The notes: generated by a model from the letters alone, not told the origin. DNA of 64,000 nt from an uncultured cyanobacterium (GCA_963807635.1 CAWEDJ010000075.1:1-64000); one strand, 5' to 3'; positions 6,715 through 59,461 are shown, numbered from the stretch's first letter. A program made the numbers and translations.

Positions 6715-7488
6715 CTAGTCGCACCACAGGGATAATAATAGGGTTTTATCGTCCGTTGTACGGGCATTTAAGCGATCGGAATTTAAAAACGCATTGAGAT
6801 AATCATCCTCTTCTTCAGGATTCTCTGTTTCTTGCAAATAGGTTTCCAGTGGCTCAAAAAAAGGCGCGAAGGGCATCCACTGGACTAAATTGAGAGAAAC
6901 CCGTTCTACTCCATCGGTGGCGGCACAAATAAAGGTCGGAACTTCGGTTAAAACTTTGACCTGTAGGGAGTCGATCGCATGGTCAGAGGTGACAAAGGTG
7001 GTTTCATTGATATATTCCCCTTTGTCGGGCTGAAAGAGGAGACGATAGGTTTCATTTTTGTCACGAATCACCATAAAACCATCCCCAATTTGCATTCCTG
7101 CTAACCAATGGGGAGTGGCGATAAAGACCAGAAGAGTTGAAGCCAGATCACTCAAATTCCCTTCCATTTCTGTCGTCACAATGCTTAAACGCGATCGCAC
7201 AGATTCGATTAACTGAGTAAAAAGAAGTTGGGCTTGTTCATCACTTAAGGGGTCATTCGTCGGGAGATCTTGCACCGAATCAGCATGAATTGCTTCCAGA
7301 AATCGTAGAGATTCATTCACTGTGGTTTTCGCCCCAATATCTGCGTATTTGGCACTGCCTGCTCCGTCCGCGATCGCGCCAATTAAGATATTTCCGTCTA
7401 GCAAGAGATAACGCCCGTAATCTTGGCAGGGGAGATTTGATTGCTGATGACTGGTACCAATGCTAGAGCGGGTGATAACTTTCCACAT
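6715..7488 (-). CDS. PP2C-like Ser/Thr phosphatase of TerY-P type (YegK/PphC-like)
   Basis: GTSH...PCQD, AIADGAGSA, QIGDG, KGEYINETTF, ATDG, DDKT motifs. Confidence 0.88.
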   Translation of the reverse strand: MWKVITRSSIGTSHQQSNLPCQDYGRYLLLDGNILIGAIADGAGSAKYADIGAKTTVNESLRFLEAIHADSVQDLPTNDPLSDEQAQLLFTQLIESVRSRLSIVTTEMEGNLSDLASTLLVFIATPHWLAGMQIGDGFMVIRDKNETYRLLFQPDKGEYINETTFVTSDHAIDSLQVKVLTEVPTFICAATDGVERVSLNLVQWMPFAPFFEPLETYLQETENPEEEDDYLNAFLNSDRLNARTTDDKTLLLSLWCD

Positions 7489-7654: not shown

Positions 7655-9343
7655 TTACTCAACCAATACGGTTAAACGACGTTTAAGGGTTTCTAATCCT
7701 AATCGTTGACTGGCAGAAATAAAAACAGCCTGGGGATATTCTTTCTTGGCGGTTTCTAAGGCTTCACTACTGACTTGATCGATTTTATTAAAGGCAATCA
7801 ACATGGGGCCTGTGGTGATGGGCATTTCTTCTAAAATCGTTTCAACGGATTGAAGTTGGCGTTGCCAAGCGGGATGGGATAAGTCCACGATTTGCAAAAG
7901 GGCATCGGCTTCTGTCACTTCTTCCAAGGTTGCACGAAAGGCATCCACTAGAGAAGGCGGTAATTCATGGATAAAGCCTACGGTGTCGGTTAAAAGAAAT
8001 AAATGCGATCGCTGATTGGCAGGATCGACAATAGTTAATTTACGGGTCGTCGGATCAAGGGTCGCAAACAATTGATCGGCAGTATAAACATCGGATTGGG
8101 TCAGGGCATTAATGAGGGTCGATTTACCCGCATTGGTATAACCGACGATCGCGATACTGGGAATTTCCTGTTTTTGTCGATTTTTGCGTAAACGAGAACG
8201 ATGGGACTGGAGTTGATTCACATCCTGTTGCAATTTAGAAATACGGCGTTGAATGGTACGGCGTTCCGTTTCTAGCTTGGTTTCCCCTGGCCCCGTGTCC
8301 CAATTCCTCCTCCCAACCGAGACATGGCCCTTCCTCGTCCTGTCAAACGGGGCATCATGTATTCCAGTTGGGCGAGTTCAACCTGTAATTTTCCTTCCTG
8401 GGATTGGGCGCGTTGGGCAAAAATATCTAAAATCACTTCCGTTCGGTCAATCACCCGTACCCCCAATTGGGTTTCGAGATTACGGATTTGGGAAGCGGAT
8501 AGGTCTCGATCAAAAGGCCACTAGGTTAGCTCCTGTGGTTTGCACTTTGAGGCTAATTTCTTCCACTTTTCCTGAACCAATCACGGTTTGGGGATGGGGT
8601 TGCGATCGCTTTTGACGAATTGTTTCCAAGACTTGTCCCCCTGCGGTATCGATGAGGCGCACTAATTCAGCTAAACCTTCTTCAAAAACCTGATCGGAAT
8701 GGGAATCGGTTTGGAGTCCCACTAATAAAACGCGGTCTTGATCCGCTTCAACTTGGCGGGCAACAAATTCACGGCTAAATTCGGCTTCTAGATTTTCAAC
8801 AAATTCCAGAAAATCTTGGTCACTCAAATTTTCTAGACTGAGGGCGGGGGAAACTTGCCAATAGGAAACGGTTTCGGGAACTGGATCGGGTTGGGGTAAG
8901 AGATTCGCTAAATAGACTTCTTTGATATAGCCCGTTGCACCACCACCCCTTCTTTCAAAGCCTTCGCCCGTTAGAGCCAGCACTACCAACGCATCCAAAC
9001 GCTGTAGAACCATCGCCGTTAAACTGGATTCCCTCGGCGGTTCTGCTTTTAAGCTCGTGGTCAGGCAACGAATCCCCGAAAGCCGTTCTGCCCCGTAGCG
9101 GGGTAACTCTAGGGGAGGAATTTGGGTCTGCCTGGGGGTTCCGACTCCGACTCGTATCACCTGACCCCGACGATTAATATAGACCGAGATCGGTTGATTG
9201 ATTTCTGTACTAATGGCCGCCAGGCGTTGGGCGAATTCGGTGGTGGTAAAGCGATCGCCCTGTAAACGCTGATGGTACAGTCGTTGGAGTTGTTTAGTCT
9301 GGTTGGTTTTTAGTCCTTGTAAATTCCCAAATACGGTTTCGAT
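7655..9343 (-). CDS. hflX: GTPase HflX (cyanobacterial long form); two 1-nt frameshifts (~8515, ~8291), probably sequencing errors
   Basis: [63 protein letters not shown] across three ORFs. Confidence 0.9.
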
Positions 9344-9786
9344 AGGAGTAACTCGCGGTTTAAAATAAAGTGTAATACTCAAATTTTACAGAAAAGTTCG
9401 TCCAAGTCTCGATCTCCCCTAAACCCTTTCAAGTCTGCGATCGCCTTTTAGATTTCAAAAAAGTCAATAATCCCTCAAACAGGGCAAAAAATCCAGAAAG
9501 AAATATTCAGATCGGAATCCTCAAAATTTTGTTAATCCTGAAGTAATGGAACTTCACAGAATATTCACAAAAATACATTAACTTCAATTCAACTCGGTTC
9601 TTTGTTAATAAATGAGATGGGCTAAATCTGCTCTATTAAACAGTTTAGAAAATCCAGCTATCTTTGAATCATCCTCATTTTTCGACAATACTAACTGAGT
9701 ATTACTCACCTAATTATAGGTTCTCTAGCCCGACAAGTTTGATCACTCTCATCGATGAGCCAATCGATTTTAATTCAGGAGACATC

Positions 9787-32656: not shown

Positions 32657-34690
32657 TTATATTGATGATACATTTTGCGATTGAGAAAAATCATTAAATG
32701 GATTTATATCATCGTCAAAAAGATTTCCTTGTTCGTTATTTTGTAATTCCTGAAGTGTTTCATCCAGATAATAATCAGGTTCTTGAACTGACTCAATTTT
32801 TCTAAGCAAATTAAAAGTTCTTGCATGCGCCCGTCGAAGAATAGTATTGTAAGTTCTAGGATGAATAACTGTATTTTTTCCGTCGGTGAGCGTATCTTCA
32901 TCAAGAGAATTTACATAAGTTCCAAGAACATAGCACACTATTTTAGTTGATTGATTGATTTTTCCACTTCTTCTAAGTTCTTTTGCATATTTTTGCGCTT
33001 GAGTCTTTTCTTCATCTGTAATTGTGAATCCTCCTTTTTTCAGTTCTACTATGACAACTGATCTAAAACCAATAACTTCATGGTTTTCATTAAAATCATC
33101 ACAACCATATATCCCGATAGAACTGTCGGGAAGAACAACAAAATCTGGTCTCTTTCTCGGATGTTCCAAACTTGCTTCTCCAAAAAACTTTTTTACGACG
33201 GTTGCTAATGAACGATTCGATGTAAAACTTATAGACTCAAACTCTGGCCCAAATATCCATAAACCTTTGGCAAATAAAGGTTGTAAGTCATGTAGTTCAT
33301 CTGAAGTATGTTTCTCTACTAAATTCTCAAGTTGCTTGATTAAATCAAGACGATAACGGAGTTCATCAAGAACTTTTTTTGCATCAGTTACACTCCATTC
33401 CTGAAGTATAACCTCTAATTGTTCTAAATCATTAAACGCTAATCGAGATAGTTTTTCGAGAAGAGCATACCCAGATCGAACTTTTTCTAGATTAGCAAGA
33501 ACTTGCACTGTATTATCTAAATCTCTTTGTTGCATTGTTGGGCAAAGAACTTGAACCTCATCTACAAATTGAACGATTTGCTTTTGAGACAATAAAGGGA
33601 GCTTCTTAATATTATCTTTATTGACTTTCATTGCTTCGCGTTTACGCTCTTTTCTTATATCACTTAGCAAAAGACGTAAATCATTTTCGACAAAATCTGA
33701 TACTTGTCTGCTAAGAGAGTTAACAATTGGTGACTGATAAAAACCTGACCAGTCAGGCTTAATATCTCCAAGCAACTGATCAGCTTCAATAACATAAGTA
33801 AACTGTTTTCCTACTGAAGTTCGAGCATCTAATAATGGACGTTCGTAAATTTCCCAAGACGGAATACCAACAAGACGACGGTTTACCCACCAAGCGATAC
33901 CGCTCTGCTTGCTTGTCCGACCCTTTTTTTGGCTATCGAATCGACGAATTTTTAACTCACCATGTTCTGTCAGAAGAGAACTCGTTTCACAAAGATGCTC
34001 AATATCTTCTAATGAAACAAGATTATTATTTACATATATATTAAATTCTGGATCTGCGACAAAACGAGAACCGATTAGTTCTGAAACTTGTGAAGCACTA
34101 AAATCAAACAGTTCTTTTCTTGCTTCAGTATAAATTTTAGTCCCATGTCCATCTTTATTTTTTTTCTCTTCAAGAGTTAATCTAAAAGGAGTTTCCATTA
34201 AACTTCTTTCAACTCTGATTCGATGATATTCACCATTCTTTGTTGTTTCTACAAAATACTTAGACGCAAAACAAAACATTGCATGTCTTCCAACACCATT
34301 ACGCCCAAAAGCAGTTCTTTTTCGTTTTGACGATTTAGGAGGGAATTCTACATTTGTACCCTGCTGTTTTAATCGATTGTAATTTAACTGTGTCCATCTT
34401 TGAGTAAACTCTTCATATGTCATTCCAGTACCATTATCTTCAATGGAGATACAATTGCTGCCGTCTTTCAGCCATTCAATTTTTACCTCATCTGCCCCTG
34501 CATCCCAAGAATTAGCAACGAGTTCAACTAGAGCATAATGTGGATCAGCGATAATATTTCCTGCATGATGTTCAAGAAATTTGTCGCCGAATGTCAATGG
34601 CAGATCGAGTTGCTGATTAATCATATTGGCTAACAGGCTTGTTGTATGTTGTTTTTGATCAGAGTGTTCAGAAATAAGTATTGAAGTCAA
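32657..34690 (-). CDS. GHKL (MORC/MutL-like) ATPase fused to a C-terminal PD-(D/E)XK-like nuclease
   Basis: ELVANSWDA, EDNGTGM, GRNGVGR; C-terminal RPDFVV...IVELKK...QAQKY. No HIP1 sites. Confidence 0.78.
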   Translation of the reverse strand: MTSILISEHSDQKQHTTSLLANMINQQLDLPLTFGDKFLEHHAGNIIADPHYALVELVANSWDAGADEVKIEWLKDGSNCISIEDNGTGMTYEEFTQRWTQLNYNRLKQQGTNVEFPPKSSKRKRTAFGRNGVGRHAMFCFASKYFVETTKNGEYHRIRVERSLMETPFRLTLEEKKNKDGHGTKIYTEARKELFDFSASQVSELIGSRFVADPEFNIYVNNNLVSLEDIEHLCETSSLLTEHGELKIRRFDSQKKGRTSKQSGIAWWVNRRLVGIPSWEIYERPLLDARTSVGKQFTYVIEADQLLGDIKPDWSGFYQSPIVNSLSRQVSDFVENDLRLLLSDIRKERKREAMKVNKDNIKKLPLLSQKQIVQFVDEVQVLCPTMQQRDLDNTVQVLANLEKVRSGYALLEKLSRLAFNDLEQLEVILQEWSVTDAKKVLDELRYRLDLIKQLENLVEKHTSDELHDLQPLFAKGLWIFGPEFESISFTSNRSLATVVKKFFGEASLEHPRKRPDFVVLPDSSIGIYGCDDFNENHEVIGFRSVVIVELKKGGFTITDEEKTQAQKYAKELRRSGKINQSTKIVCYVLGTYVNSLDEDTLTDGKNTVIHPRTYNTILRRAHARTFNLLRKIESVQEPDYYLDETLQELQNNEQGNLFDDDINPFNDFSQSQNVSSI

Positions 34691-34698
34691 TTCAATTT

Positions 34699-37290
34699 TT
34701 AACTAGCAACAAAATTAACCAACTTGCCAGGGACAACAATGACTTTTTTAATCTCTTTGCCCTTTAAAAACTTCTGGAAAATCTCAGAATTACGGGCATA
34801 GTTTTCTAGATCTTCCTTAGTTGCTGCTGATGGAACTTGAATGGTTCCTTTAGTTTTTCCCATGACTTGAATCACTAAGGTAATTTCACCAACCACCAAG
34901 GCTTGGGGATCAAAAGTTAACCAAGTTTGTTGATGAACAGAATCATTGTGTCCCAATTGATGCCAAAGTTCCTCACTAATATGGGGCGCAAAGGGAGCTA
35001 ATAAAATTAACAAAGCTTCGATCGCCTCTTGATAAGCGGGAGACTGTAAACAGTTGGCAGAATTAAGAGCATTATTGAGCTTCATTAATTCGGAAATGGC
35101 GGTATTAAATTGATAATCTCCGTCTAAATCTTCAGCAATTTCTTTGATGGCATGGTGAACCGCTCTGTGTAGGTCTTTTTCGGCTTTAGAATTAAGATTT
35201 TGCAGTTTGGCAGAATTAATCGTTGAGGATTTTTGACCCTGTTTTTCAATATATTCTGTCACTAATCGCCAAACCCGATTGAGGAAGCGAAATTGTCCTT
35301 CTACATCGGCATCGTCCCATTCCAAGTCTTTTTCAGGGGGAGCTTTAAAGAGAATAAACATTCGTGCGGTATCGGCTCCGTATTTCCCTAAAACGGTCTG
35401 GGGATCGACACCGTTGTATTTAGATTTAGACATTTTTTCATAGAAAAATTCCAACTTTTCACCCGTTTCAGCATCAAAATAGAGTTTGTCCCCTTTATCA
35501 ACTCTTACCTTATCAGAAGGAACATATTTACCCGTTTTCGGATTTTTATAGGTTAATGCCTGAACCATGCCCTGGGTTAATAACTTCTCAAAGGGTTCAT
35601 CCACATTCACCAAACCGCGATCGCGTAAAACTTTTGTAAAGAAACGAGAATAAAGCAAATGTAAAATCGCGTGTTCAATGCCGCCCACATACTGATCAAC
35701 TCCCATCCAACCGTTAACTTTCGCTAAATTAAAGGCTTCCTGGGGATTTTGGGCATCGGTATAACGTAAGAAATACCAAGAAGAATCAATAAAAGTGTCC
35801 ATCGTGTCCGTTTCCCGTTTGGCAGGTTCACCACAACTCGGACAGGCTACATTCACCCAACTTTCTAACTTAGCTAAGGGCGATCCTCCCCGACTGCTAA
35901 ATTGGACATTTTCGGGCAATTTAACGGGTAAATCCTCATCAGGAACGGGAACAGTCCCACAGCTAGGGCAATGAATCACAGGAATCGGACAACCCCAATA
36001 ACGTTGACGAGAAATCAACCAATCCCTTAAGCGATACTGAATTCGCGCTTTTCCATAGCCCTGATTTTCGGCATACTTCACAATGGCTGACTTGGCTTTG
36101 GGGGAATCCATGCCAATAAAGCGATCGCTGTTGACGAGGGTTCCTGTGTCCGTATAGGCAGATAATAGACAAATATCCTCATTATCCGCGTCATCAGGCA
36201 GAATAACGACCTTTATGGGTAAATTATTTTCCTTCGCAAATTTAAAATCTCGCACATCATGGGCAGGAACTCCCATCACCGCACCCGTTCCGTATTCATA
36301 AAGGACGTAATTTGCAATCAAAATAGGAATTTCTTCCTCATTAAAGGGATTAATCGCTATTCCTCCTGTTAAAACGCCTTTTTTGGGTTTATCTTCGGCA
36401 GTACGTTCAATTTCGCTCTCACTCTTCACTTCTTGGATAAACGCTTCAACGGCAGATCGGCGATCGCTGGTTGTGACTTGCAGGGTTAACGGATGTTCAG
36501 GAGCCAGGACAAGGTAGGTAACACCATAAACCGTATCGGGACGGGTCGTAAAAACGGCAATTTTCTCTGTGCTATCCTTAATCGGAAATTCTAAATAGGC
36601 TCCGACCGACTTCCCGATCCAGTTCGCCTGCATGGTTTTCACCCGTTCTGGCCAACCCGATAATTTATCCAAATCATTTAATAATTGTTCGGCATAGTCC
36701 GTAATTTTCAGAAACCACTGCCGCAATAATTTTCGTTCAACCTTTGCCCCCGATCGCCAGGATTTTCCCTCACTATCCACCTGCTCATTAGCCAGCACCG
36801 TTTGATCAATCGGGTCCCAATTCACCGCCGCTTCTTTTTGGTAAGCCAAACCTGCTTCATAAAATTGCAAAAATAACCACTGCGTCCATCGGTAATAATC
36901 AGGGGAACAGGTCGCCACTTCCCGATCCCAATCAATGGATAACCCTAATTGTTGGAGTTGCTGCTTCATCTGGAGCATATTTTGATTCGTCCATTCAGCA
37001 GGGGGTATTCCCCGATCAATGGCGGCATTTTCTGCGGGCAAACCAAAGGCATCCCAGCCCATTGGATGTAACACCCGATATCCCTGCATCCGTTTGACGC
37101 GAGCGATCACATCCGTAATCGTGTAATTGCGCACATGGCCCATGTGGAGACTGCCCGAAGGATAGGGAAACATCGACAGCGCGTAAAATTTGGGGAGGCT
37201 AGAATCTTCTGGGGTTTGGTCTAATCCCATGTCAGCCCAGTTTTTTTGCCATTTTTGCTCAATGTCCGCAGGGTTATATGGGGATGCCAC
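34699..37290 (-). CDS. leuS: Leucine--tRNA ligase
   Basis: MFPYPSG.LHMGH, KMSKS, editing-domain [12 protein letters not shown]. Confidence 0.98.
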
Positions 37291-37394
37291 GATGACTGGT
37301 GCGCTCCTATGCTCAGGTGATTACAGATTTGTCATTGTAACATTGTTGGTAAGGGCATAGTTGATAAGGGATAATTGTTAATTAGAAAGGTTGA

Positions 37395-37823
37395 TTAATT
37401 ATTGCTCAAATAAATCTCTATATTTCTCGTATTCCAGGTAGCAATACCAACTCCAAAAAAGTCTTGATCTTCAGTCCAAACTGGACTATTCAAGGATAAA
37501 GTGAGAGCGAGTATTGACCAATCATTTAAGTCTTGTTCTCCTATCCTTTTTTTTGCATCGTCTTCATACTCACTATAAATTTCCTGGGCAATCGGTATCA
37601 CTATTTTTGTGAGTTTTTCAATAGCATCTGAGAACGTTTCTAACGGCAGGTTTTGTTTCTGGAGAATCTGTGGTAAGTGATTACTTAATTCTTGATAGCA
37701 CAATGCAGGAGTTACAAATTTACAATGAAAATGATATTTTTCTAGTAAAATAGGAACTCTCTCCCCTAAGATTGCTCGAATCAGAATATTAGTGTCAAGG
37801 ACAATCAATTTGCTCATCGTCAT
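37395..37823 (-). CDS. PIN-domain toxin
   Basis: IVLDTNILI ... DLND...LAL ... WTEDQDF. Confidence 0.88.
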   Translation of the reverse strand: MTMSKLIVLDTNILIRAILGERVPILLEKYHFHCKFVTPALCYQELSNHLPQILQKQNLPLETFSDAIEKLTKIVIPIAQEIYSEYEDDAKKRIGEQDLNDWSILALTLSLNSPVWTEDQDFFGVGIATWNTRNIEIYLSNN

Positions 37824-38080
37824 CGGGCATTTTTCTGAGCATTTTGAAAATCAGCTAATAAGTCATCTTCAGTAATTCCTTTTGTTTCTAATAGTTGTCT
37901 AATTTTTTGGGCAGCTTCTTGCAGGGCGATAAAGTCTTGTTTTTGTGGGGTTTGTTGGGTTGGTATGTAGTAACCGATAGGTACACCATGAGAAGTAATG
38001 GCGATCGGCTCCGAGGTTTGCTTTGTGTATTTTTGTAAGTTAGCCCGAAATTCTTTAATCCCAACAGATTGGATTTCCAT
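37820..38080 (-). CDS. Phd/YefM-like antitoxin
   Basis: VGIKEFRANL...PIAITSHG; ATGA overlap with the PIN gene. Confidence 0.82.
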   Translation of the reverse strand: MEIQSVGIKEFRANLQKYTKQTSEPIAITSHGVPIGYYIPTQQTPQKQDFIALQEAAQKIRQLLETKGITEDDLLADFQNAQKNAR

Positions 38081-38217
38081 AACAGTCACGCTCCAAAATG
38101 TGTACACATGGTTACACTATAGCATGGGATAATATTAAAGGCGATCGCTTTCCAGACAATTTTGCTATGATTTTACTCGTAGAAAGATCATCTGAAAATC
38201 AGTGAGATTAAAAATTA

Positions 38218-38420
38218 ATGACAAAATACACAACTTTATCTGAGGAGTTAAGTCAACTTCCCAGGGAACGACAAGAAGCTATTCAGACAAGAGCTTCTGA
38301 GATTTATAAGGAGGATAAACGAGAAGTATTGATTGATGAAATTCTCCACAAAAAATAACATGATTCAAGTTGTTTTTGATACTCATATTTTAATTTCTGC
38401 TCTATTGCCCATAAATACAA
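38218..38420 (+). pseudogene. Remnants of a second TA pair (antitoxin N-terminus and PIN N-terminus)
   Basis: MTKYTTLSEELSQLPRERQEAIQTRASEI from 38218 and MIQVVFDTHILISALL from 38360; both decay after a few dozen codons. Confidence 0.5.
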
Positions 38421-38577
38421 ATCAAAGATTTAAATCCATTTCTGGCGTAGTGATACTATCTCTATATTCTCGTAAATTTTCAACAAAAATTAAGGCTTTT
38501 TCATATCTAGAATCTTGCTCTAAAATACCTTGTTGAGCTAGTTTTTTCATTTGTTTAATAAAATTAGTTAGAAGATC

Positions 38578-41184
38578 TCAGCATTGGGCCTCTTCATTTT
38601 TCAAAACTTTTCTATGGGAACTAATCCTTTGTCTTGTTTTCCAATCACGAGTTCCCACTAAGATATTTTTAATCTCATTATCATTATATTCTATCGAGTC
38701 ATCAGGTAAAACTTCGATAATTTCTATAAAAGTAGGATAGTTGATCTTTCCTGTTTGAGTAAAATGTGGGTTTATGGATGCAATATCGATCCCTAGTGAT
38801 ATTAATGCAATTGGAATTAATTCCCTAGTTTGTGAGCATATATTTCTATAATTTTCGACAATATTTTTAACACCTAAAGTATTGCTATTGCTCAACAATT
38901 CTTCCATTGATGATAAAAGTAAATATCTAGATAAAGAATTGTCTTGACAAGAAGAATGTAAACAATTTCTCCAATTATCTATATTTTTCGTCGAAGTAGA
39001 ACAAGCTGTCCAAAGCTGATCGTTCATTACATTTCCCACATTATCAGACCATTGAATCAAATCGTCACCTACACATTTTTGCAAAAGATTTTTGAATATT
39101 ACTATAGATTGCTGGAGATTCCGAAGCATAAATGATGTGCATATATCATCATTTGATTCTATGAATATTCGTGATCCAGAATAGGCATAAGAAACGTTAT
39201 CATGCATCTTTATATTTACATCACTTTTGATAATTTTCAGTAAAAATATGCGAAGTGATTCCCTTGAAAATCTATCATATTGATCATGGATAATACCATA
39301 GGCTAAATCCCATTGTTGTATCTCGATACATTGTTCAATGAATGACTCAACATCAACTATTGGTGCAAGTCCAGCCCATAGAAAAATAACAGTATTCCAC
39401 TTATCATCATTACGATGTTCAAATAAACAAAGGCGGTCTATCCTATGTCCAAATTCATCTCTTTGATTTCCTTGAAAAACACATTCAGCAACGAAGTATT
39501 CAGCTAGGCTCTTATGTACAAAGCTGTAAGTACCAGGCCCGATAATTAGCCCTGATCTCTCTCGAAGAGATGAAAGTACATCTTCTTCAGAAAAAGTTTT
39601 TCTCATTTTTGTAAGTAATTGCTTCATAATTTCTAATGCTGTCGATTCCTCTATTTGTTCTTCTTCTCGAAGAAACATTTTTAGAGCTAATCCTTGCATT
39701 AGTTGTCGTTTCTCTTCTAAAGAAAGTTCTATAGAAGTTGCATTGACTGTTCGACGACTATCCCATACACCTAACATGCCGTCAACATAACGTTGATAAA
39801 GTTTGGAACGTCCATTAGGAAGACTACCATCAAGGTGATGAACCGTTAATAATGTTGATAGTAATAATGGATTTCCTGTCAAAAAACCAAGTGTGGGATC
39901 GTTAAGCCAGTTTGAAGCAAGTTCAGAAGCATTAATTTCACGACTTTTATCCTGAAGCAATGGCGTATATTTATACCAACGCTGCATATAATCAATAATT
40001 CGCTCTTGATCAAAAGGTTCTATATTCCATAATCGAAAACTAGACTGTAATCGTTCTAGGTGATCTGTTGTTATGGGACGGGATGTTAATATAATCGGAC
40101 ACTTTTCTAGTACAAGGAGTAAGACATTGACCCAATCGCAAACTAAATCTCTGGCATCATGACGAATTTCATCAAAACCATCTAAAATAAAAATAATCTG
40201 TTTTTCTTCAATCCATTTCTTAATTCGTTCTGAAGTAATGTCTTCCGATAAATGCTGCCCAACCTCGGTTCTGATTATGTCTTGATAAGATGGCAAAAGC
40301 AAAGACTTATTTAATAAATTTCGTAATTCAACCCTTATACAAATTCCATCCCATTTAGGGCTTAAAGCTTCTCTTTGCAACCATTTTGCCCAAGTAGATT
40401 TTCCTGCACCAGATTGACCAGTAATAATTGTTTTGTTGTTATTAATCGCAAATAATCTAAAACTTTCGTCATTTGTTCCAACGACATTGCCCAGCTTTGA
40501 ATCATTTTTCTCTTGAATTTTTTCTTTAATCTCAGGATGTACAAAAAAGTTCTCAAATTTTCCCGAAGTTACGTTTTCTGACCTTAAGCCTGTTAAATCA
40601 AGCTCACGTAATTCAATTTTTTGAGTAAGTTTTTGTCGTACTATTTTTAGAGTTGAGTCCGCCAACTTTGACTATGACGTTGCCAATTCATCAACTTTTT
40701 CAAATATTGTTTTTAATTGAGTTGTAAGTTCATCAAAACGTCTATAACTCTCTGACCAAGCTTCACTTTCCCAATCTTTTACAACCGAAGGTATTTTACA
40801 GAGTAAAGTTGCTATATGAGGAAATAAAATTGCGTAAATTTCCGTTAATCCATCTTCAATCACTACTGTTGGCAGAGAGCGATCAACATAACAATCATCA
40901 AAAATATTTTGCCCGTTAAGAGAACCTTTAAACAACAAGTCAGGTGTTTGTGTAAGGGGTCGTAATTCTTCAACACAAGTCTCAATTAAGCGACGTTGTT
41001 TATCCTCAGATATTTTTTCTTGAGAAAGAAATGGTAAAATCGGTTCCACAACTTCTGCTATCACAGTTTCTACCTGATTTTTGATTTTTCGCTGTTTGAA
41101 AAAATCAAGATTCTTATATTTGGTAGAAATCACCTCCGACACGAGGTTTGTAATAATCCCAAAAATAAATTCTGCTAATCCCAT
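38578..41184 (-). pseudogene. NACHT (STAND) NTPase interrupted by one in-frame TAG at 40674-40672
   Basis: Walker A GQSGAGKS, Walker B FILDGFDE, ILTSR, GNPLLL, FVHKSLAEYF. The 170-aa and 695-aa ORFs share one frame. Confidence 0.82.
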
Positions 41185-42178: not shown

Positions 42179-43527
42179 ATGTCTTCCTCTGAATGTTTGC
42201 CAAACTTGCCCAGTCCCGAATTCGTCACTCTATGTCAGGCGCAGTCTCGGCTTGTTCAGCAGGGTTTTCAAGTGGATTGGTGTGGCGTTTATTTAACCCG
42301 CTCTCACTCTGAGGTAGAAGATTCTGAGTTAATTCCTATTGTGGTTTATCCCTCATCGGAGGCAACTTCCTATGCCAGTTCACCGTTAATCACCCTAACG
42401 AGACAAAAAGAAAATAATCCCCTAACGTTGCCTGGATTATTACTCTCAGTGCAGGATTCCGTTGAAACTTGGGATTCGGAGGAGATTCTGCCCTATTCAT
42501 CGGGGGAGCATCCCCAATTGGTTTTTCCGTTAGTTTACCAAGAAGTGATGTTGGGAGTATTGGTAACGGGACGGGAATCTGCGCCCTGGCAAGCAGAAGA
42601 GGTTGCTCAGTTAGAAAATATTGCCCATACCCTAGCGATCGCCTGTTTTTTAGACCAACAAAAAAGCTGGTATTTAACCCAATTAAGACAACAGCAAAGG
42701 CGACGGGAGTGGGAACGGGATCACTTGGATGATCTATTCCATCAATTACGAAATCCCCTGACGGCGTTGCGGACTTTTAGTAAATTATTGCTCAAACGGT
42801 TTTGGGGAGATGATAAAACCCAAGCGGTGATTGAAGGGATTGGGCGGGAAAGTTATCATCTTCAGGAATTACTTCGGCCTTCGAGGGAGATTTGGCTCGG
42901 AGTGATCAAGAAATTACGGTTCCGATTTGGGACACGGAAACGCTACCAGAAAATGTGTTGGCTCCTGTTTCGACTTTTTTATTACCCAGTTCTAGCCTTC
43001 CTTTGAGTCCCGTTGATTTAACGACGGTGCTTAGGCCGATTTTGTCTTGTGAAGAAGCGATCGCCCAGGAAAAACAGATTGAATTAGATGGGATTCTTCC
43101 TGATCATTTATCTCCGATTTTAGGAAATGCGGCGGCTCTTAGGGAAATTTTTAGTAATTTAATCGATAATGCCTTGAAATATACTCCATCAGGAGGCAAG
43201 GTTCGAGTGACAATGGGACTCATGGCTTCTTTTGAAACCGAACAATGGCAGGGAGTAGAAATTGCTGATACGGGCTACGGTATCCCCAAAAAAGACCAGG
43301 ATCACGTTTTTGAACGACATTATCGGGGAATTCAATCCGAGGGGGATATTCCAGGGACGGGATTAGGTCTGGCGATCGTCAAGGAATTAGTGGAAAAAAT
43401 GCGGGGAAAAATTGAAATTACTAGTCCCAATCATTTGAGTCTTGATGTCCAATATCCAGGGACGAGCGTTACCCTTTGGTTTTTGTTAGAGAATCAAAAA
43501 ATGGGAGTTGCACTAGATCAAGATTAG
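42179..43527 (+). CDS. hik2: GAF histidine kinase Hik2 (chloroplast sensor kinase homologue); one slip near 42877
   Basis: SPEFVTLCQAQ, DDLFHQLRNPLTALRTF, NLIDNALKYT, PGTGLGL. Confidence 0.8.
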
Positions 43528-45187: not shown

Positions 45188-45841
45188 ATGCCGATTGGTT
45201 TACCTGAATTTATTGAAAATCAAGAAAATCGTTGTCCTGTCATTTTTGTGTTAGATACGTCGGGATCTATGCAAGGCGCACCGATCGCGGCTTTGAATGA
45301 AGGCCTTAAAACCTTTAAGCAAGATGTTTTGCGCGATACCCAGGCGATGTTGAGTGTGGAAGCCAGCATTATTACCTTTGGGGATGGAGTTAAGCAAATT
45401 CAGGATTTTGTGACAATTGACCATTTTGAACCTCCTCAATTAAGGGCTGATGGTTTAACGCCAATGGGAGAAGCGATTAATCTTGCGTTGAATGTTTTAG
45501 AACAGCGTAAGGCAGTCTATAAAACTAACGGGATTCCCTATTATCGTCCTTGGGTCTTTTTAATTACAGATGGTGCGCCAACGGATGCTTGGCAAGGGGC
45601 GGCTCAAAATTTACGACAAGCCGAAGCAGAAAATCGTTTGTTGTTCTTTTCAGTAGCGGTTCAAGGGGCCAATATGGAAATTCTCAAACAAATTTCGCTG
45701 AGACCACCTGTTTTATTAAATGGTCTTGATTTTCGGGATTTATTTATCTGGCTCAGTAGTTCGATGAAGCGGGTTTCGAGTGGCAAGATTGGGGAGGCGA
45801 TCGCGTTACCGCCTGTAACTTGGGGTCAAATCACAACTTAA
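45188..45841 (+). CDS. TerY/YegL-like vWA protein
   Basis: ENQENRCP, MIDAS motif DTSGSM, GLTPMG, YYRPWVFLITDGAPTD, FIWLSSS. Confidence 0.9.
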   Translation: MPIGLPEFIENQENRCPVIFVLDTSGSMQGAPIAALNEGLKTFKQDVLRDTQAMLSVEASIITFGDGVKQIQDFVTIDHFEPPQLRADGLTPMGEAINLALNVLEQRKAVYKTNGIPYYRPWVFLITDGAPTDAWQGAAQNLRQAEAENRLLFFSVAVQGANMEILKQISLRPPVLLNGLDFRDLFIWLSSSMKRVSSGKIGEAIALPPVTWGQITT

Positions 45842-45878
45842 ATTTTTAACCAAATATGATATTTTCTAGGAGGAAAGT

Positions 45879-46109
45879 ATGCGTAAACAAAGAATTGAAT
45901 ATTCTTCGCCGTTAGATGCGTTGATTGCAGTTACAAAGCGTCTCAGTGTTTATGAAAATAAATATCAATGGGATTCAGAAGATTTTTTTGATCGCTATAA
46001 CAAGGGATGTTTAACGGATGAGGTTGATTTTATCGAATGGTCTAATGATTACCGCCATTATCTAGCGTTACGTTTAGAATTAGCCAATTTATTAGCCCAT
46101 GCTGCATAA
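45879..46109 (+). CDS. Putative antitoxin (TumA-like)
   Basis: YENKYQWDSEDFF...G...DEVDFIEW; overlaps the downstream DUF6516 gene. Confidence 0.7.
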   Translation: MRKQRIEYSSPLDALIAVTKRLSVYENKYQWDSEDFFDRYNKGCLTDEVDFIEWSNDYRHYLALRLELANLLAHAA

Positions 46110-46479
46110 AATTTTAGAGGATTATTTAAAAGATATTGAACTGGCTTTACTGGCTTTAGAGCAGGTTTATATTGAGCGTTATACTGAAGAAATATTAACA
46201 CCGACTAGAGTCAATTTACGACTTCGTATTCGTTGGAATTTGGGGTATTTACTGGAAATTAATGAAGCGGTTATTGTTGAAAATAATGTTTTGACATTCT
46301 TAGATTATCGTTATCACTGTCAAGATAGGCACAATATCCTAATTTTTCGTTATGATAGCACCCCTCATTTTCCTGATTTATCGAGCTTTCCCCATCATAA
46401 ACATTTGCCAAAAGATGTAATTGCTTGCGAAAAACCTGATCTTATTCAAGTGTTGCAGGAAGTTACAGTTTTAATTTAG
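46099..46479 (+). CDS. DUF6516 (TumE-like) toxin
   Basis: YRYH...FRYDSTPHFPDLSSFPHHKH. Confidence 0.78.
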   Translation: MLHKILEDYLKDIELALLALEQVYIERYTEEILTPTRVNLRLRIRWNLGYLLEINEAVIVENNVLTFLDYRYHCQDRHNILIFRYDSTPHFPDLSSFPHHKHLPKDVIACEKPDLIQVLQEVTVLI

Positions 46480-46541
46480 TTTTAAATCTAATTAAATTTA
46501 TCCCATTTTACAATATTTAGTTTATTTGATGATCAGAAAAA

Positions 46542-48608
46542 ATGACCAAATTGTTCTGTAGTAAAACGAATCAGGCAGTTACGTTAACGGTTTCTATTGC
46601 CCAGAGTGGGGAAGGAGAAGTTTGGCGGACGGATCGCTCTGGTCTGTTGGCGAAAATTTATCATGTTCCCGCAAGCAATGAGAAAGAAAAGTTAGCCCAG
46701 ATGAAAGATCGGGTGGCGAAGTTAGAGGTGATGGTGAAGCGGGTTCCGAAAGATCCGAATGCTCACCAGAATCATATTTCCTTTGCTTCACGCGATCGCT
46801 TCTCAAGAATAGCGGTGGGGAAGTGGTGGGCTTTCTGATGCCAGAGGTGGAGAATAGCCTGGATTTATTGAAGGTTTGTACGCCGAGAATGCGGAAATCT
46901 TTGGGGGTTGATGCGAATTGGTATTTTCTCCATGTGGTCGCCCGAAATATTGCAGGAATTATTCAAGCGATTCATGATGAGGGTTATGTTTTAGGGGATA
47001 TTAAGTTACAAAATATTCTGGTGAATAACCGCGCTTTACCGACGATTATTGATACGGATTCTTTTCAGGTTGTTGATCCTGTTCAAAATAAGGTTTATCG
47101 GTGTTTGGTTGCTTCGGAAGGGTTTACACCATCTGAGTTAATTGGTAAGAATATTGACTCGATTACTCAATCTGCGGTGCATGATCGTTTTCGGTTGGGC
47201 GTGGTTATTTATTATCTTTTGTTTGGTGGGGCCACCGTTTCGGGGAAGTTGGCAGGGTTCGGGTGATCCGCCTGAGCAAGTGGAGTTAATTCGTCGCGGT
47301 TTTTGGCCCTGTGCACCGAATAGTTTAATTCAGCCGAGTAATAATACGATTCCTTTGGATATCATTCATCCTGAGCTTCAACGGTGTTTTTTGCTGTGTT
47401 TTAATGATGGTCATTTCAATCCTTCTAAACGTCCGAGTGCGAGGGTTTGGTTGGAGGCGTTAGAGGTTGCGTTTAATGAGTTACAGTCTTGTGGAAAAGT
47501 TGATAGTCATTTTTATGGTTTGAGTTATGGGCGTTGTTATTGGTGCGATCGCGCTCAGAATTTAGGGGTTGATATTTTGCAAGGGAAGTTGATGGTGAAA
47601 CCCCAACCTATCAAGCCTCTATCTCAAACTAAACCCCAGCCTACTGTTGTTAAACCAATCGTCCCTAATCGGCCAATAACGTATCAACCACCACCACCAC
47701 AACTTTTTTTAACAAGAAGAAAGATTCTAGTCGGGATGGGTTTACTTGGGACTGGAGGAGCAATCACCTGGATAGGATCAAAAAAAACTCAATCCACATC
47801 TCTCCTGACTCCAACACCAAATCCAACACCAACACCAAATCCAACACCAACACCAAGTCCAAAGGCTACACCAATTATTATTAAATCATTAACAAATTAT
47901 ACAGAAGCTCTACCAGGGGGAGTCAAACTGAAAATGATCGCCATTCCTGCGGGTAAATTCCTAATGGGATCGCCCGATACCGATTCTGATGCCTCAGATG
48001 AAGAAAAGCCCCAACACCAAGTTGAATTAACTAGTTTTTGGATGGGGAAATATCCTGTGACTCAGGAGCAATATCAAGCCATAATGGGGATTAATCCGTC
48101 ATATTTTAAAGATAATCCCTATAACCCAGTGGAAAAAGTAACTTGGGATAATGCTCAGGAGTTCTGCCAAAGATTAAGTGAAAAAACAGGAAAAAAATAT
48201 CGTCTTCCCAGTGAAGCAGAGTGGGAATATGCCTGTCGAGCGGGAAGCCAAACCCGTTTTTATTTTGGAGATGATGAAAAGCAATTAGAAAAATATGCTT
48301 GGTATAAAGAAAATTCAGGTTCAAAAAACCACCCAGTCGGGCAGAAAAAGCCAAATAATTGGGGACTATTTGATATGAGTGGAAATGTGTGGGAGTGGTG
48401 TGACGATGTTTGGCATGAAAATCATGAAAATGCGCCAAAGGATGGAAGAAGTTGGAATAATAACTATTCTCAATCCCCTGTGAAACTAATGCGCGGTGGT
48501 TCTTGGGGAAGCGTTTCAAGGGGCTGTCGCTCGGCGGCGAGGGTCGGGATCGGTGCGGACTACTGGAGCAACAGCTACGGTTTTCGGCTTGCTCTTGGCT
48601 CTTTCTAG
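46542..48608 (+). CDS. YegI-type kinase + Cys/His cluster + TM + Pro/Thr linker + FGE-sulfatase (CLec) domain; two slips (~46788, ~47229)
   Basis: SGEGEV, AKIYH, GFLMP, GDIKLQNILV, IDTDSFQ, HDRFRL; C..H...CYWC; TRRKILVGMGLLGTGGAITW; RLPSEAEWEYACRAG, DMSGNVWEW, RGGSW...GFR. Confidence 0.87.
47811..47861 (+). repeat. CCAACA/CCAAAT tandem encoding a (PT/PN)n linker
   Basis: Read directly. Confidence 0.85.
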
Positions 48609-48627
48609 TGCGATCGCCTGTTTCATT

Positions 48628-48750
48628 TATAGAGTCCATTTGGTATCTTTCTCACAACCTTTGCCCAGTATGGATTAGAGAGAATTAGCCAAAATGCCTG
48701 TAATTCTTATCAGCTAAGCGTTACAAGAGAGATACCAAATAGGTTCTATA
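48628..48750. mobile_element. MITE-like element
   Basis: 25-bp imperfect TIR: TATAGAGTCCATTTGGTATCTTTCT versus the reverse complement of the right end, TATAGAACCTATTTGGTATCTCTCT; TA at both ends. Confidence 0.75.
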
Positions 48751-48778
48751 ACGAACACATATAATCAAAGGGAATAAA

Positions 48779-49594
48779 ATGAGCAACTATGTAACTAAAT
48801 CGATCAATGGTGATATATTTCAATATTATATCGATACATACGCAGGACTAAACCAAGCCGACACAAACCTAAAATTATTCTCAAATACACATGAGCGAAT
48901 ACTTTGCCATATATATTTTAATCCCAGCATAATCACCCCAGATATTAACGCAGATATTTTAGAAGGACATAAATCTACATTAGTTCTAACAGATTCATGG
49001 TTTTTATTTGAATCACTCAACTCATTAATAAAATTTTATGAATATATAAAACCAAAACCCTCATCTTCTTCTACACACAAAACCAGCTACGCGACGTATG
49101 ATGATGCTTATTTAGAACCTAAAAACTATAATTATACTAGAATACCGTATGGCCCACCCGAAATTTTTGATTATACATCAATAAAAAATGCTTACTTAGA
49201 ATATCTATTAGATTCATTGCTGGAAGAATACGAAAAAAATATGAGAAGCATATTCGATTTGCGAAAATCTCAAGATGAACTATTAGAATATTTTATGTAT
49301 CTTGAAAAATTTGCCTACCAATCACAGAGAGAATATCTTTTAACTGCATACAACCAAATATTTCAGAATTTCAATATCTTTCCACAATATCCTCTTTCGA
49401 TCTCATACGCGATAAGAAATCAATACGTTCATAATGGTGAGCCTGCTTCTACAGGATTTTCCACTCCCTTTCTGAAAACACAATTTATTAACGCACACCA
49501 CAAATTTGTCTTAAATTATTCTTTAATTGTTGTCACTGAATTAATTGAAAATGAAATTAACTTACGCAATAAAAACAATCTACCTAGTTGTTGA
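48779..49594 (+). CDS. Hypothetical protein with HEPN-type RxxxxH motif
   Basis: YAIRNQYVHNG near a helical C-terminus; AT-rich, no HIP1. Confidence 0.62.
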   Translation: MSNYVTKSINGDIFQYYIDTYAGLNQADTNLKLFSNTHERILCHIYFNPSIITPDINADILEGHKSTLVLTDSWFLFESLNSLIKFYEYIKPKPSSSSTHKTSYATYDDAYLEPKNYNYTRIPYGPPEIFDYTSIKNAYLEYLLDSLLEEYEKNMRSIFDLRKSQDELLEYFMYLEKFAYQSQREYLLTAYNQIFQNFNIFPQYPLSISYAIRNQYVHNGEPASTGFSTPFLKTQFINAHHKFVLNYSLIVVTELIENEINLRNKNNLPSC

Positions 49595-49702
49595 CCACTT
49601 CTAGTGCGATCACCATTACTGTCTTTATTCAAACGCATCTTATTTAATATTCGTTAAATCCGTAATATTTTGTGCGTTACGTTGTGCTAACATACCCTAC
49701 AA

Positions 49703-50227: not shown

Positions 50228-50591
50228 GTCTGATATGAGTAATCTAGAAACATCCTCCCAGAATACTGCTCAATCTACACAAAGTAAACCACAACGCCCC
50301 AAAAAACCTGAAATTTATTTTTTAAGAACCTATCCGTTTAGAGATGATAGCTCTCACCATCATCCTCAAGAAGAGAATTATTGGAATGAAACCGTTGAAG
50401 CAGAAACATCCCAAGGTGAAAAACTTAATATAGAAGCTTATTTGTTGCGAGTTTATCCGACTACCTTCAATGAATATGATGCCTATATGGATATTCCCAT
50501 AAGCTACAATTCTGATATTAAATCTGATATTAAAAAAATACGATCATCACGTCTTGGGAAAACCTGGAACGTTGTTGCTGGGCCCCATTGA
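50226..50591 (+). CDS. Hypothetical protein
   Basis: 121-codon open frame in AT-rich DNA; no motif recognised. Confidence 0.5.
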   Translation: MSDMSNLETSSQNTAQSTQSKPQRPKKPEIYFLRTYPFRDDSSHHHPQEENYWNETVEAETSQGEKLNIEAYLLRVYPTTFNEYDAYMDIPISYNSDIKSDIKKIRSSRLGKTWNVVAGPH

Positions 50592-57828: not shown

Positions 57829-58863
57829 CTATTGGACTGATCCCAGGCTTTTTTGTGATGTTGAGACAGGAATATTTTTAACTAAGCGAAAACCAATGTG
57901 CGATGTTCCCGTATTTGTTTCTTCCGCTTCCCTTGCGGCGGGACGATAACGACTACAATAATTTTTAGCACAGAGAAAGGAACCCCCTTTGATAACGTGC
58001 TTGGCAACCCCTGGTTCCCTGGGATCAAGACTGTCTGATGGATTTTCCACTAATGGATCGGTTTTTCCTGATTTATTTTCATGGCTTACTTGATACCAAT
58101 CCTTTGTCCATTCCCAAACATTACCTGTCATATCATAAAGCCCATAGCCGTTAGCAGGAAAAGACCCGACTTTAGCAGTTCCTAAAAATTCATCTTCTTC
58201 CGTATTAAAAAAAGGAAATACCCCCTGCCAGGTATTGGCCTTTTTAGCGGAATATTGATTGCCCCAGCTATAGGTCATTTTAGATAAGCCTCCTCGTGCG
58301 GCGTATTCCCATTGGGCTTCGCTGGGTAAGGATTTTCCAGCCCATTTTGCATAACTCTCGGCATCTTCAAAGGCGATTTGTACGACGGGATGATTTTCTT
58401 TACCGACAATAGAACTGTTTCGCCCCTGGGGATGTTGCCAGTCTGCTCCCTGTACCCAATGCCACCAACTAAGCGGTTCAATTTCGGTGACTCCTGCTTC
58501 GGGAGGAATGAAAACGAGGGAACCAGGCTGACGTTCTTCGGGTTTTAGGGTTGGAAATTCTTCGACGGAAAGGGGACGTTCAGCGACAGTTTTGTAACCT
58601 GTTTCTGACACAAATTGAGCGAATTGGGCGTTAGTGACTTCGTGGCGGTCTATACAAAAATCCCTTACTTTGACTTGATTGACACTTTTTTCTTCTGCAT
58701 AAAATTCATCGGAACCCATCCGAAAAGTTCCCTCCTGAATGGCTGCCATATTGTCAGGACAGGTAAGAGTTTCTGCGAATGCCTGGGGATTAACAATCCA
58801 AGAAGTTGTAAAAACAAGAAGGGCGATCGCGGTAATTAGGATTAATTTAAAATTAGCAATCAT
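57829..58863 (-). CDS. Formylglycine-generating enzyme family protein (SUMF1-like) with signal peptide
   Basis: HPVVQ, LPSEAQWEYAARGG, DMTGNVWEW, catalytic-type KGGSFLCAKNYCSRYR. Confidence 0.9.
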   Translation of the reverse strand: MIANFKLILITAIALLVFTTSWIVNPQAFAETLTCPDNMAAIQEGTFRMGSDEFYAEEKSVNQVKVRDFCIDRHEVTNAQFAQFVSETGYKTVAERPLSVEEFPTLKPEERQPGSLVFIPPEAGVTEIEPLSWWHWVQGADWQHPQGRNSSIVGKENHPVVQIAFEDAESYAKWAGKSLPSEAQWEYAARGGLSKMTYSWGNQYSAKKANTWQGVFPFFNTEEDEFLGTAKVGSFPANGYGLYDMTGNVWEWTKDWYQVSHENKSGKTDPLVENPSDSLDPREPGVAKHVIKGGSFLCAKNYCSRYRPAAREAEETNTGTSHIGFRLVKNIPVSTSQKSLGSVQ

Positions 58864-58873
58864 AGATAAACAA

Positions 58874-59461
58874 TTAATTAGGGGATTTATCAAATATCAC
58901 GTTTTCATAGAGTTCGGGAAAAGAAATTTGAAATTCAACTGAATTGAGAGAGAGGATAGAATTAACTCCCATATATTCAGATAACAACCATTTTCCTTTC
59001 TGGGTTTTATTAAACTGCATCACATAATATTGATCCTGACTAATCAAAATATATTCTTGAAATTGAGGAATAGAACGATAGTAGAAAAATTTATCCCCCT
59101 GATCATAATTTTGGGTCGATTTTGATAAAACTTCAACGATTAGGGAAGGATTCAGCACAGTCGTTTTTCCGCTACCGTAATAGATAGATTCCCCTTGAAT
59201 TAACATTACGTCGGGGTATGTTCCTTGACGATAGGTTGGAATCCACAGTTTTACGTCACCGATAAAAATATCATATTGCTTGCGTTTTAAGGTGAATTTC
59301 AAATTCGAGGCAAAATTGAGGGCGATTTTATTATGCTCCGTTGTTTCGCTTGTTATTGATACTATTTCTCCATCTTGATATTCGTGTTTATCGTCTGCCG
59401 TTTCTTCGAGTGCAAGATATTCCTCAAAGCTGTAATGTTTTTTTTCTAGGGCAACTGTCAT
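58874..59461 (-). CDS. Uma2-family endonuclease
   Basis: EYQDGEI, YPDVM, IVEVLSKST..YD.GDKF..YR. Confidence 0.92.
   Translation of the reverse strand: MTVALEKKHYSFEEYLALEETADDKHEYQDGEIVSITSETTEHNKIALNFASNLKFTLKRKQYDIFIGDVKLWIPTYRQGTYPDVMLIQGESIYYGSGKTTVLNPSLIVEVLSKSTQNYDQGDKFFYYRSIPQFQEYILISQDQYYVMQFNKTQKGKWLLSEYMGVNSILSLNSVEFQISFPELYENVIFDKSPN

What the first reader, a model, noticed from the sequence alone, without database searches (positions are those of the whole stretch)
45188..48608. TerY-P variant rebuilt as a receptor kinase with a CLec ectodomain: candidate diversifiable immune sensor
Seen: TerY vWA followed by a kinase with YegI-type motifs (GEG, AKIY, IDTDSFQ, C..H..CxxC). The kinase continues through a Pro-rich stretch, one hydrophobic helix, a PT linker and an FGE/CLec domain. 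Known: vWA-PP2C-kinase (TerY-P) triads give anti-phage protection, and CLec domains are the ligand-binding folds diversified by cyanobacterial DGRs. Inference: a transmembrane receptor coupling a variable binding site to a defence-associated kinase, reset by the distant PP2C. I do not know of this combination being characterised.
Basis: partly seen in the sequence, partly recalled or inferred. Interest (0 to 1): 0.8.

Follow-up and report, generated by a model that had tools for sequence, protein, structure and literature searches.

The report
TerY-P kinase with hypermutable lectin tip
This cyanobacterial gene encodes one signalling kinase joined to a lectin-like binding tip that, in close relatives, is rewritten by a mutation-generating retroelement; it links two known systems, but the copy here looks frozen and a role against viruses is unproven.

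Summary
The architecture is real. The two slips are very likely assembly errors: 8 of 9 single-base frame breaks in this assembly lie at GGCC sites, and relatives are open at both places. That leaves one 688-aa protein: YegI-type kinase, weak helix with a twin-arginine motif, CLec domain. The fusion recurs in one Microcystaceae clade, with TerY upstream in 10 of 10 loci and PP2C in 8 of 10. In Microcystis its tail carries the DGR signature (70 distinct tails in 100 proteins; 6 of 12 tails match a template almost only at adenines; target hairpin present). Here the tail is a drifted former target: no RT, Avd, template or hairpin. Corrections: a TumA-TumE pair sits between TerY and the kinase; 25 of 120 homologues have no helix; a sister genome has TPR in place of CLec; the PADLOC TerY and STK_OB models do not match. 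One orthologue (AKE64189.1) is already tabulated as a non-cytoplasmic kinase-CLec DGR target; I found no paper linking it to TerY-P. Earlier scan notes saw DGR-like CLec tails on other DNA, not this link. New variant; defence inferred only.

The parts
45188..45841 (+). TerY-type vWA protein (DTSGS MIDAS motif), YegL-like
   Evidence: Pfam VWA E 7.7e-10; 54% identity to E. coli YegL, E 6e-67
45879..46109 (+). TumA antitoxin, inserted cassette
   Evidence: NCBIfam NF045776 131 bits, cut-off 100
46099..46479 (+). TumE toxin, inserted cassette; contigs of two metagenome runs join TerY to the kinase without this pair
   Evidence: NF045777 196 bits, cut-off 90; joint 45828 to 46551 in X1 and X3
46542..47576 (+). 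YegI-type Ser/Thr kinase domain, in three frame pieces in this assembly, ending in C..H..CYWC (47490-47546)
   Evidence: 95% DNA identity to the open frame of G004; that copy is 28% identical to YegI, E 4e-36
46786..46793 (+). Slip 1: one base short, where the relative reads a GGCC site, next to a HIP1 octamer; probable assembly error
47224..47232 (+). Slip 2: one extra G in the run before a GGCC site; probable assembly error
47577..47711 (+). Module junction (identity to G004 ends at 47578, where G004 goes on into helix + TPR) and Pro-rich linker
47712..47777 (+). Twin-arginine motif TRRKIL and weak Gly-rich hydrophobic segment; candidate internal Tat signal anchor
47778..47903 (+). Pro/Thr linker
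   Evidence: sequence
47904..48608 (+). FGE-type CLec domain; one Cys in the RGGSW...CRS segment, where the FGE-like gene at 57829-58893 has two
   Evidence: Pfam PF03781 E 4e-53; orthologue matches TvpA 2y3c E 1.3e-27
48495..48586 (+). DGR-type variable region, drifted: 21 of 30 adenines and 10 of 62 other bases differ from the template of G003; no target hairpin behind the stop
6715..7488 (-). PphC-like PP2C phosphatase, the only one of its type found in the assembly, directly behind hflX; partner status untested
   Evidence: Pfam PP2C_2 E 2.6e-49; 34% to PphC; single hit; synteny

Best explanation
One accessory gene module of the YegL-PphC-YegI type of TerY-P triad, in which the kinase carries an exchangeable C-terminal binding module; here a non-catalytic CLec domain of the kind that DGRs rewrite. 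Shown: one ORF in relatives, TerY linkage, module swapping, DGR signature in Microcystis orthologues, a drifted tail without DGR machinery here. Inferred mechanism: a ligand bound by the CLec tip clusters the kinase, which autophosphorylates at the conserved D-T-D-S loop and phosphorylates a cellular target; TerY is a metal-dependent adaptor and the one PP2C reverses the signal. Forms with the twin-arginine helix would show the folded CLec outside the inner membrane by Tat; helix-less forms sense in the cytoplasm. Specificity is set by episodic DGR visits and then frozen, as in this genome. The signal is most likely foreign or stress-related; which one is unknown.
For: Open frame in G004 and in 4 of 4 runs at both slips; 8 of 9 frame breaks at GGCC against 3.4% background. 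113 of the 120 listed homologues carry both Pkinase and FGE-sulfatase. TerY upstream in 10 of 10 and PP2C in 8 of 10 CLec loci with at least 3 kb of flank. 14 CLec kinases in a 17-row clade, SH-aLRT 97. Tails: 70 distinct in 100; 619 of 624 residues at AAY columns reachable by adenine change, unreachable residues being 23% of the domain body. 6 of 12 kinase-borne tails differ from a template of the same genus at 0-3 non-adenine bases. Pyrimidine tract plus GC stem behind 5 of 5 Microcystis-type kinase genes read (perfect stem in 3), absent here. YegI is an active kinase that needs the Ser after D-S-D and shows second-order autophosphorylation (10.1101/819920); that Ser is kept. Twin-arginine motif in 6 of 6 CLec forms with a helix, 1 of 79 others.
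Against: No genome showed a perfect template-target pair for this kinase within itself (G015: 17 of 28 mismatches at adenines plus gaps; G078: tail 18 bases longer than the same-class template compared, and a second template on the same contig, seen, was not compared). 2 of 12 tails fit poorly and 4 had no template of equal length. No read of this strain was seen, so the slips are not proven errors. The structure model failed (pLDDT 44). The twin-arginine forms share one origin, so the count is not independent. No ligand, substrate or phenotype is known.
Confidence: 0.62

Rival explanations
1. Anti-phage immune receptor: the CLec tip recognises a phage part and the kinase arrests or kills the cell, perhaps through the adjacent toxin-antitoxin genes.
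For: Patchy presence (10 of 17 and 7 of 14 genomes in two genera); open frames of 405-1672 aa in the 55-70% identity group; toxin-antitoxin genes or pieces just upstream of the kinase in 9 of 10 CLec loci (read, representatives confirmed) and here; DGR targets proposed as antigen sensors (PMC10907252, passages); another TerY-P protects against T7-like phages (PMC7699616, passage).
Against: PADLOC TerY and STK_OB models do not match; no OB-fold; listings for yegI/yegL/pphC with phage showed no defence paper; related kinases occur in 37 of 37 and 16 of 16 genomes of two families, a housekeeping pattern; toxin-antitoxin genes are common in these genomes and I ran no background count.
Confidence: 0.25
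2. Ordinary cyanobacterial signalling kinase with a shuffled sensor; the CLec is a substrate-docking or autoinhibitory module, and the DGR rewrites it only because it rewrites most CLec paralogues of its class.
For: The kinase family carries TPR, WD40, PQQ, GUN4, pentapeptide, beta-helix, pilin or HhH instead, much the list known for ordinary cyanobacterial kinases (PMC2176072, passages); 25 of 120 homologues have no helix; 7-10 segments of this tail pattern per Microcystis-type genome, templates included; both roles are proposed in PMC7517822 (passages).
Against: In helix-bearing forms the CLec would lie across the membrane from the kinase; up to five tandem CLecs on one kinase fit avid ligand capture better than docking.
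Confidence: 0.3
3. A decaying pseudogene: the slips are real and the module, which lacks a local PP2C and a DGR, is inactive.
For: Two frame breaks as deposited; no local PP2C; a truncated 90% copy on C31; IS1 next door.
Against: The breaks follow the GGCC pattern that also hits other genes and the C40 paralogue at the same motif; all catalytic motifs are kept; a contig of run X1 has the tail region 48356-48609 with 2 differences.
Confidence: 0.08

Closest known systems
E. coli yegL-pphC-yegI (TerY vWA, PP2C, kinase; 10.1101/819920)
   Same: All three proteins are homologous (54%, 34%, 28%); GD..Q catalytic loop, D-[ST]-D-S in place of DFG, C..H..CxWC end; an insert can separate the genes (yegJ in K-12).
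   Different: YegI has two helices and a cytoplasmic HhH end and no outside sensor; here one weak helix and a CLec. PP2C is not in the operon here.
Cyanobacterial kinase-CLec remote DGR variable proteins (PMC7517822; AKE64189.1 = P0006)
   Same: P0006 has this architecture and is listed there as remote variable protein and putative non-cytoplasmic paralogue.
   Different: The passages and supplement searches I saw do not place it in a TerY-P operon or the YegI type; the window copy has lost the target hairpin and has no DGR in its assembly.
Phage-tested TerY-P (vWA, PP2C, STK-OB; Gao et al. 2020, seen only through PMC7699616 and PMC11090510)
   Same: Same three domain classes in the same order in most relatives.
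   Different: PADLOC TerY and STK_OB models do not match; no OB-fold; C-terminal binding module instead.
TvpA of Treponema denticola (PDB 2y3c)
   Same: FGE-type CLec with a C-terminal variable region (E 1.3e-27 to P0006).
   Different: An outer-membrane lipoprotein without a kinase (localisation from PMC10907252 passage).

Membership tests
TerY-P triad (YegL-PphC-YegI type) | TerY-type vWA gene | tested here: met
TerY-P triad (YegL-PphC-YegI type) | YegI-type kinase motifs and homology | tested here: met
   28%, E 4e-36; motifs as in 10.1101/819920. The tree had no ordinary kinases as outgroup and does not test the clade.
TerY-P triad (YegL-PphC-YegI type) | PP2C in the same operon | tested here: not met
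   38 kb away in this genome; met in 8 of 10 orthologous CLec loci. So this locus is a two-gene derivative.
Phage-tested TerY-P (PADLOC) | Match to the TerY and STK_OB models | tested here: not met
   No match at E 0.05; genome search: TerY none, but no control rang; STK_OB only five weak hits to other kinases
Phage-tested TerY-P (PADLOC) | Protection against phage | not testable with these tools
   needs a bench test
Active DGR target (window copy) | DGR RT, Avd and template in the genome | tested here: not met
   Only group II intron RTs, no Avd, no template; assembly 93.7% complete
Active DGR target (window copy) | Differences from a template confined to adenines | tested here: not met
   10 of 62 non-adenine differences to the best template; true targets of G003 have 0 of 62; synonymous null 21.7. 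An unsampled template is possible.
Active DGR target (window copy) | Pyrimidine tract and GC hairpin behind the gene | tested here: not met
Remote DGR target (Microcystis orthologues) | Adenine-specific variation and 3' cis element | tested here: met
   templates came from other genomes of the genus
Remote DGR target (Microcystis orthologues) | Perfect template-target pair in one genome | tested here: inconclusive
   Imperfect in G015 and G078; gene cut by a contig end in G069
Catalytic formylglycine-generating enzyme | Two active-site cysteines in the GGS...C segment (definition recalled) | tested here: not met
   One Cys here, two in the gene at 57829-58893
Single-pass receptor kinase | One membrane helix with the binding domain outside | tested here: inconclusive
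   Hydropathy 1.44; twin-arginine motif; TatC present; topology needs a bench test

The most novel reading that the evidence does not exclude
Microcystaceae use a YegI-type TerY-P triad as an adaptive-immunity-like receptor: a DGR writes new CLec tips, the folded tip is set outside the membrane by an internal Tat anchor or kept inside as tandem arrays, binding of a phage or other invader turns on the kinase, neighbouring toxin-antitoxin genes carry out the arrest, and chosen alleles spread to strains without a DGR.
Probability: 0.17. Interest if true: 0.85.

Novelty: new variant of a known kind. Interest (0 to 1): 0.52.

Why it matters
DGR targets in cyanobacteria have no known ligand or output, and YegI-type triads have no known stimulus. 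This module joins a hypervariable binding site to an assayable enzyme with its own phosphatase, in membrane and cytosolic forms and with 70 natural tail alleles already on file. It makes the open question of what cellular DGR targets sense directly testable, in bloom-forming genera. If the role proves ordinary, it stays a tidy case of sensor swapping.

Tried and rejected
Template search by exact pattern in metagenome contigs: 0 matches. Kinase search in metagenome contigs: 3 distant loci only. AlphaFold model of P0006: pLDDT 44, not used, no fold search run. Promoter and terminator scan: not above shuffles. The RT at 1883-3673 is a group II intron maturase, not a DGR RT. RTs of G002 and G004 fetched as DGR candidates showed no Avd, template or CLec target among their ORFs. 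PDLC02225 was a wrong guess of model (AbiEi). The review defining TerY-P (Anantharaman 2012) is not held under the id I recalled; Gao 2020 was not read. Programmed frameshifting was rejected: relatives have a plain open frame and the two slips cancel. No complex prediction was run. Runs X1, X3, X5, X7 are contigs of other strains; gaps in their cover were not used. The careful tree did not finish; the quick tree is reported, with 10 of 115 loci left out as duplicates, fragments or odd fusions.

Full report
What is there. The window is cyanobacterial (75 HIP1 octamers); a locus identical to that of the closest relative G004 is titled Snowella. TerY runs 45188-45841. It is followed not by the kinase but by TumA and TumE. 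The kinase starts at 46542 and is in three frame pieces; the last runs on through a Pro-rich linker, a TRRKIL motif with a weak hydrophobic segment, a PT linker and an FGE-sulfatase domain to the stop at 48608. Read through, it is 688 aa.

The slips. G004 is 95% identical over 46585-47578 and differs by exactly two gaps, giving an open frame. Contigs of 4 of 4 metagenome runs show a base put in at 46788 or 46792 and one left out at 47228; one contig of X7 joins the kinase end, the helix and the start of the CLec. Against 18 loci of five relatives in the genus (24,564 coding bases) the script listed 14 frame-breaking gaps; after dropping two multi-base gaps, one compensating pair and one duplicate, 8 of 9 lie at GGCC, against 3.4% background, and the paralogous kinase on C40 is broken at the same motif. 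GGCC methylation in cyanobacteria and its effect on long-read calling are recalled. No read of this strain was seen.

Family. The kinase of G004 is 28% identical to E. coli YegI (E 4e-36), the TerY 54% to YegL, the distant PP2C 34% to PphC. YegI has VGD..Q.S and DSD, and needs the next Ser (10.1101/819920: passages and Discussion); the window has LGDIKLQN and DTDS. The kinase type was found in 34 of 89 genomes of the family and 82 of 301 of the phylum. Of 113 distinct loci, those with at least 3 kb upstream have TerY in 10 of 10 and PP2C in 8 of 10 CLec cases, and in 67 and 66 of 85 others. The part behind CxWC is exchangeable: TPR, WD40, PQQ, GUN4, pentapeptide, beta-helix, pilin, HhH or one to five CLecs (59 and 35 proteins scanned). 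G004 has helix plus TPR at the same chromosomal site. The 14 CLec kinases fall in a 17-row clade of the family (quick tree, SH-aLRT 97); the other three rows are G004, a gene cut by a contig end and a broken gene with CLec pieces behind it. A protein search gave 1286 hits; 113 of the best 120 have both domains, and those named are Microcystis but for one Synechocystis.

Defence link. PADLOC holds TerY and STK_OB models, whose names fit the phage-tested system described in PMC11090510 and PMC7699616 (passages). Neither matches these proteins, and YegL itself scores only E 0.032. The anti-phage result thus belongs to another subfamily. Indirect hints remain: patchy presence, and toxin-antitoxin genes or pieces (MNT-HepT, BrnT-BrnA, FitA-PIN, addiction module) between PP2C or TerY and the kinase in 9 of 10 CLec loci, without a background count. 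Against: related kinases are in every genome sampled of two large families.

DGR link. G003 has a full DGR; its two targets differ from its template at 0 of 62 non-adenine bases. The window tail has the same length and register, with 21 of 30 adenines and 10 of 62 other bases changed; random synonymous codons give 21.7, a null that ignores shared descent. The assembly has no DGR RT, Avd or template (93.7% complete), and the gene lacks the pyrimidine tract and GC hairpin that follow both G003 targets. It reads as a former target, now fixed; run X1 has nearly the same tail. In Microcystis-type genomes, 6 of 12 kinase-borne tails differ from a template of the genus at 0-3 non-adenine bases, 2 fit poorly and 4 had no template of equal length; 5 of 5 genes read carry the cis element. 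Among 100 homologues with a readable tail 70 are distinct; in the 48 of the two commonest lengths 619 of 624 residues at AAY columns are reachable by adenine change, though some fixed columns do not fit, which points to further templates. No perfect pair within one genome was found; template-like matches were in 18 of 89 genomes.

Topology. 95 of 120 homologues have a hydrophobic segment and 91 an [ST]RR motif; 25 have no helix, and their CLec must be cytosolic. The motif precedes the helix in 6 of 6 CLec loci with a helix and 1 of 79 others, and these helices are weaker (median 1.70 against 2.12). This resembles a Tat signal (consensus recalled); Tat can read an internal motif (PMC3471235, outline only) and TatC is present. 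It may be only the positive-inside rule.

PP2C. One copy per genome in 6 of 6 of the genus, behind hflX in the 4 looked at. A second TerY and a kinase-helix-TPR are scattered residents. The window module is an extra pair that could borrow this phosphatase; untested.

In print. PMC7517822 (passages; six supplementary files searched by term, not read whole) describes kinase-CLec targets and lists AKE64189.1, which is P0006, as a remote, putative non-cytoplasmic variable protein. PMC10907252 (passages) proposes DGR targets as antigen sensors; TerY does not occur in it. PMC2176072 and PMC4978471 were seen as passages. Searches listed no paper that joins TerY-P to CLec or DGRs; most subscription papers, the 2012 TerY-P review and its supplements are outside the library and may note such fusions. 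Earlier scan notes saw DGR-like CLec tails on other DNA and none this link.

Verdict. A real, recurring new variant: a YegI-type TerY-P kinase with a DGR-class binding tip. Best reading: a ligand-gated receptor kinase whose specificity is rewritten episodically and is frozen here (0.62). Anti-phage role 0.25. Interest 0.52.

Noticed in passing
window 1883-3673 and 4200-5221: Group II intron RT with HNH, with a 99.8% identical copy on contig C46, next to a second, broken intron RT.
   Followed up: partly
window 32657-41184: Defence-like cluster: HATPase similar to type II restriction enzymes, PIN/Phd toxin-antitoxin pair, NACHT with NNH1 split into two ORFs.
   Followed up: no
window 42179-43527, 7655-9382, 50586, 52908: Other frame-broken genes (sensor His kinase, hflX, PBP); those at 50586 and 52908 are at GGCC sites. 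ORF-level oddities in this assembly should be distrusted.
   Followed up: partly
G000 C77 13000-29600 (L046, L047): Cluster of at least five CLec domains with DGR-like tails and no RT.
   Followed up: partly
L175 2283-5912 (G338): One 1210-aa open frame with SPFH/Band 7, vWA and the YegI-type kinase fused.
   Followed up: no
L177 3828-6245 (G354): YegI-type kinase fused through a helix to a type IV pilin-like domain.
   Followed up: no
L108 2797-7812 (G080): Kinase with five tandem CLec domains, each with its own variable tail, and no helix.
   Followed up: partly
window 45816-45845 and 47578: Metagenome contigs show joints that go back into TerY or skip from 47578 to 49605, so the site is a recombination hot spot in the population.
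   Followed up: no
window 48779-49594: 271-aa AT-rich ORF without Pfam, NCBIfam or PADLOC match behind the kinase; G004 has an HNH gene on the other strand there.
   Followed up: no
window 57829-58893: FGE-like gene with both active-site cysteines, a contrast to the CLec copy.
   Followed up: partly
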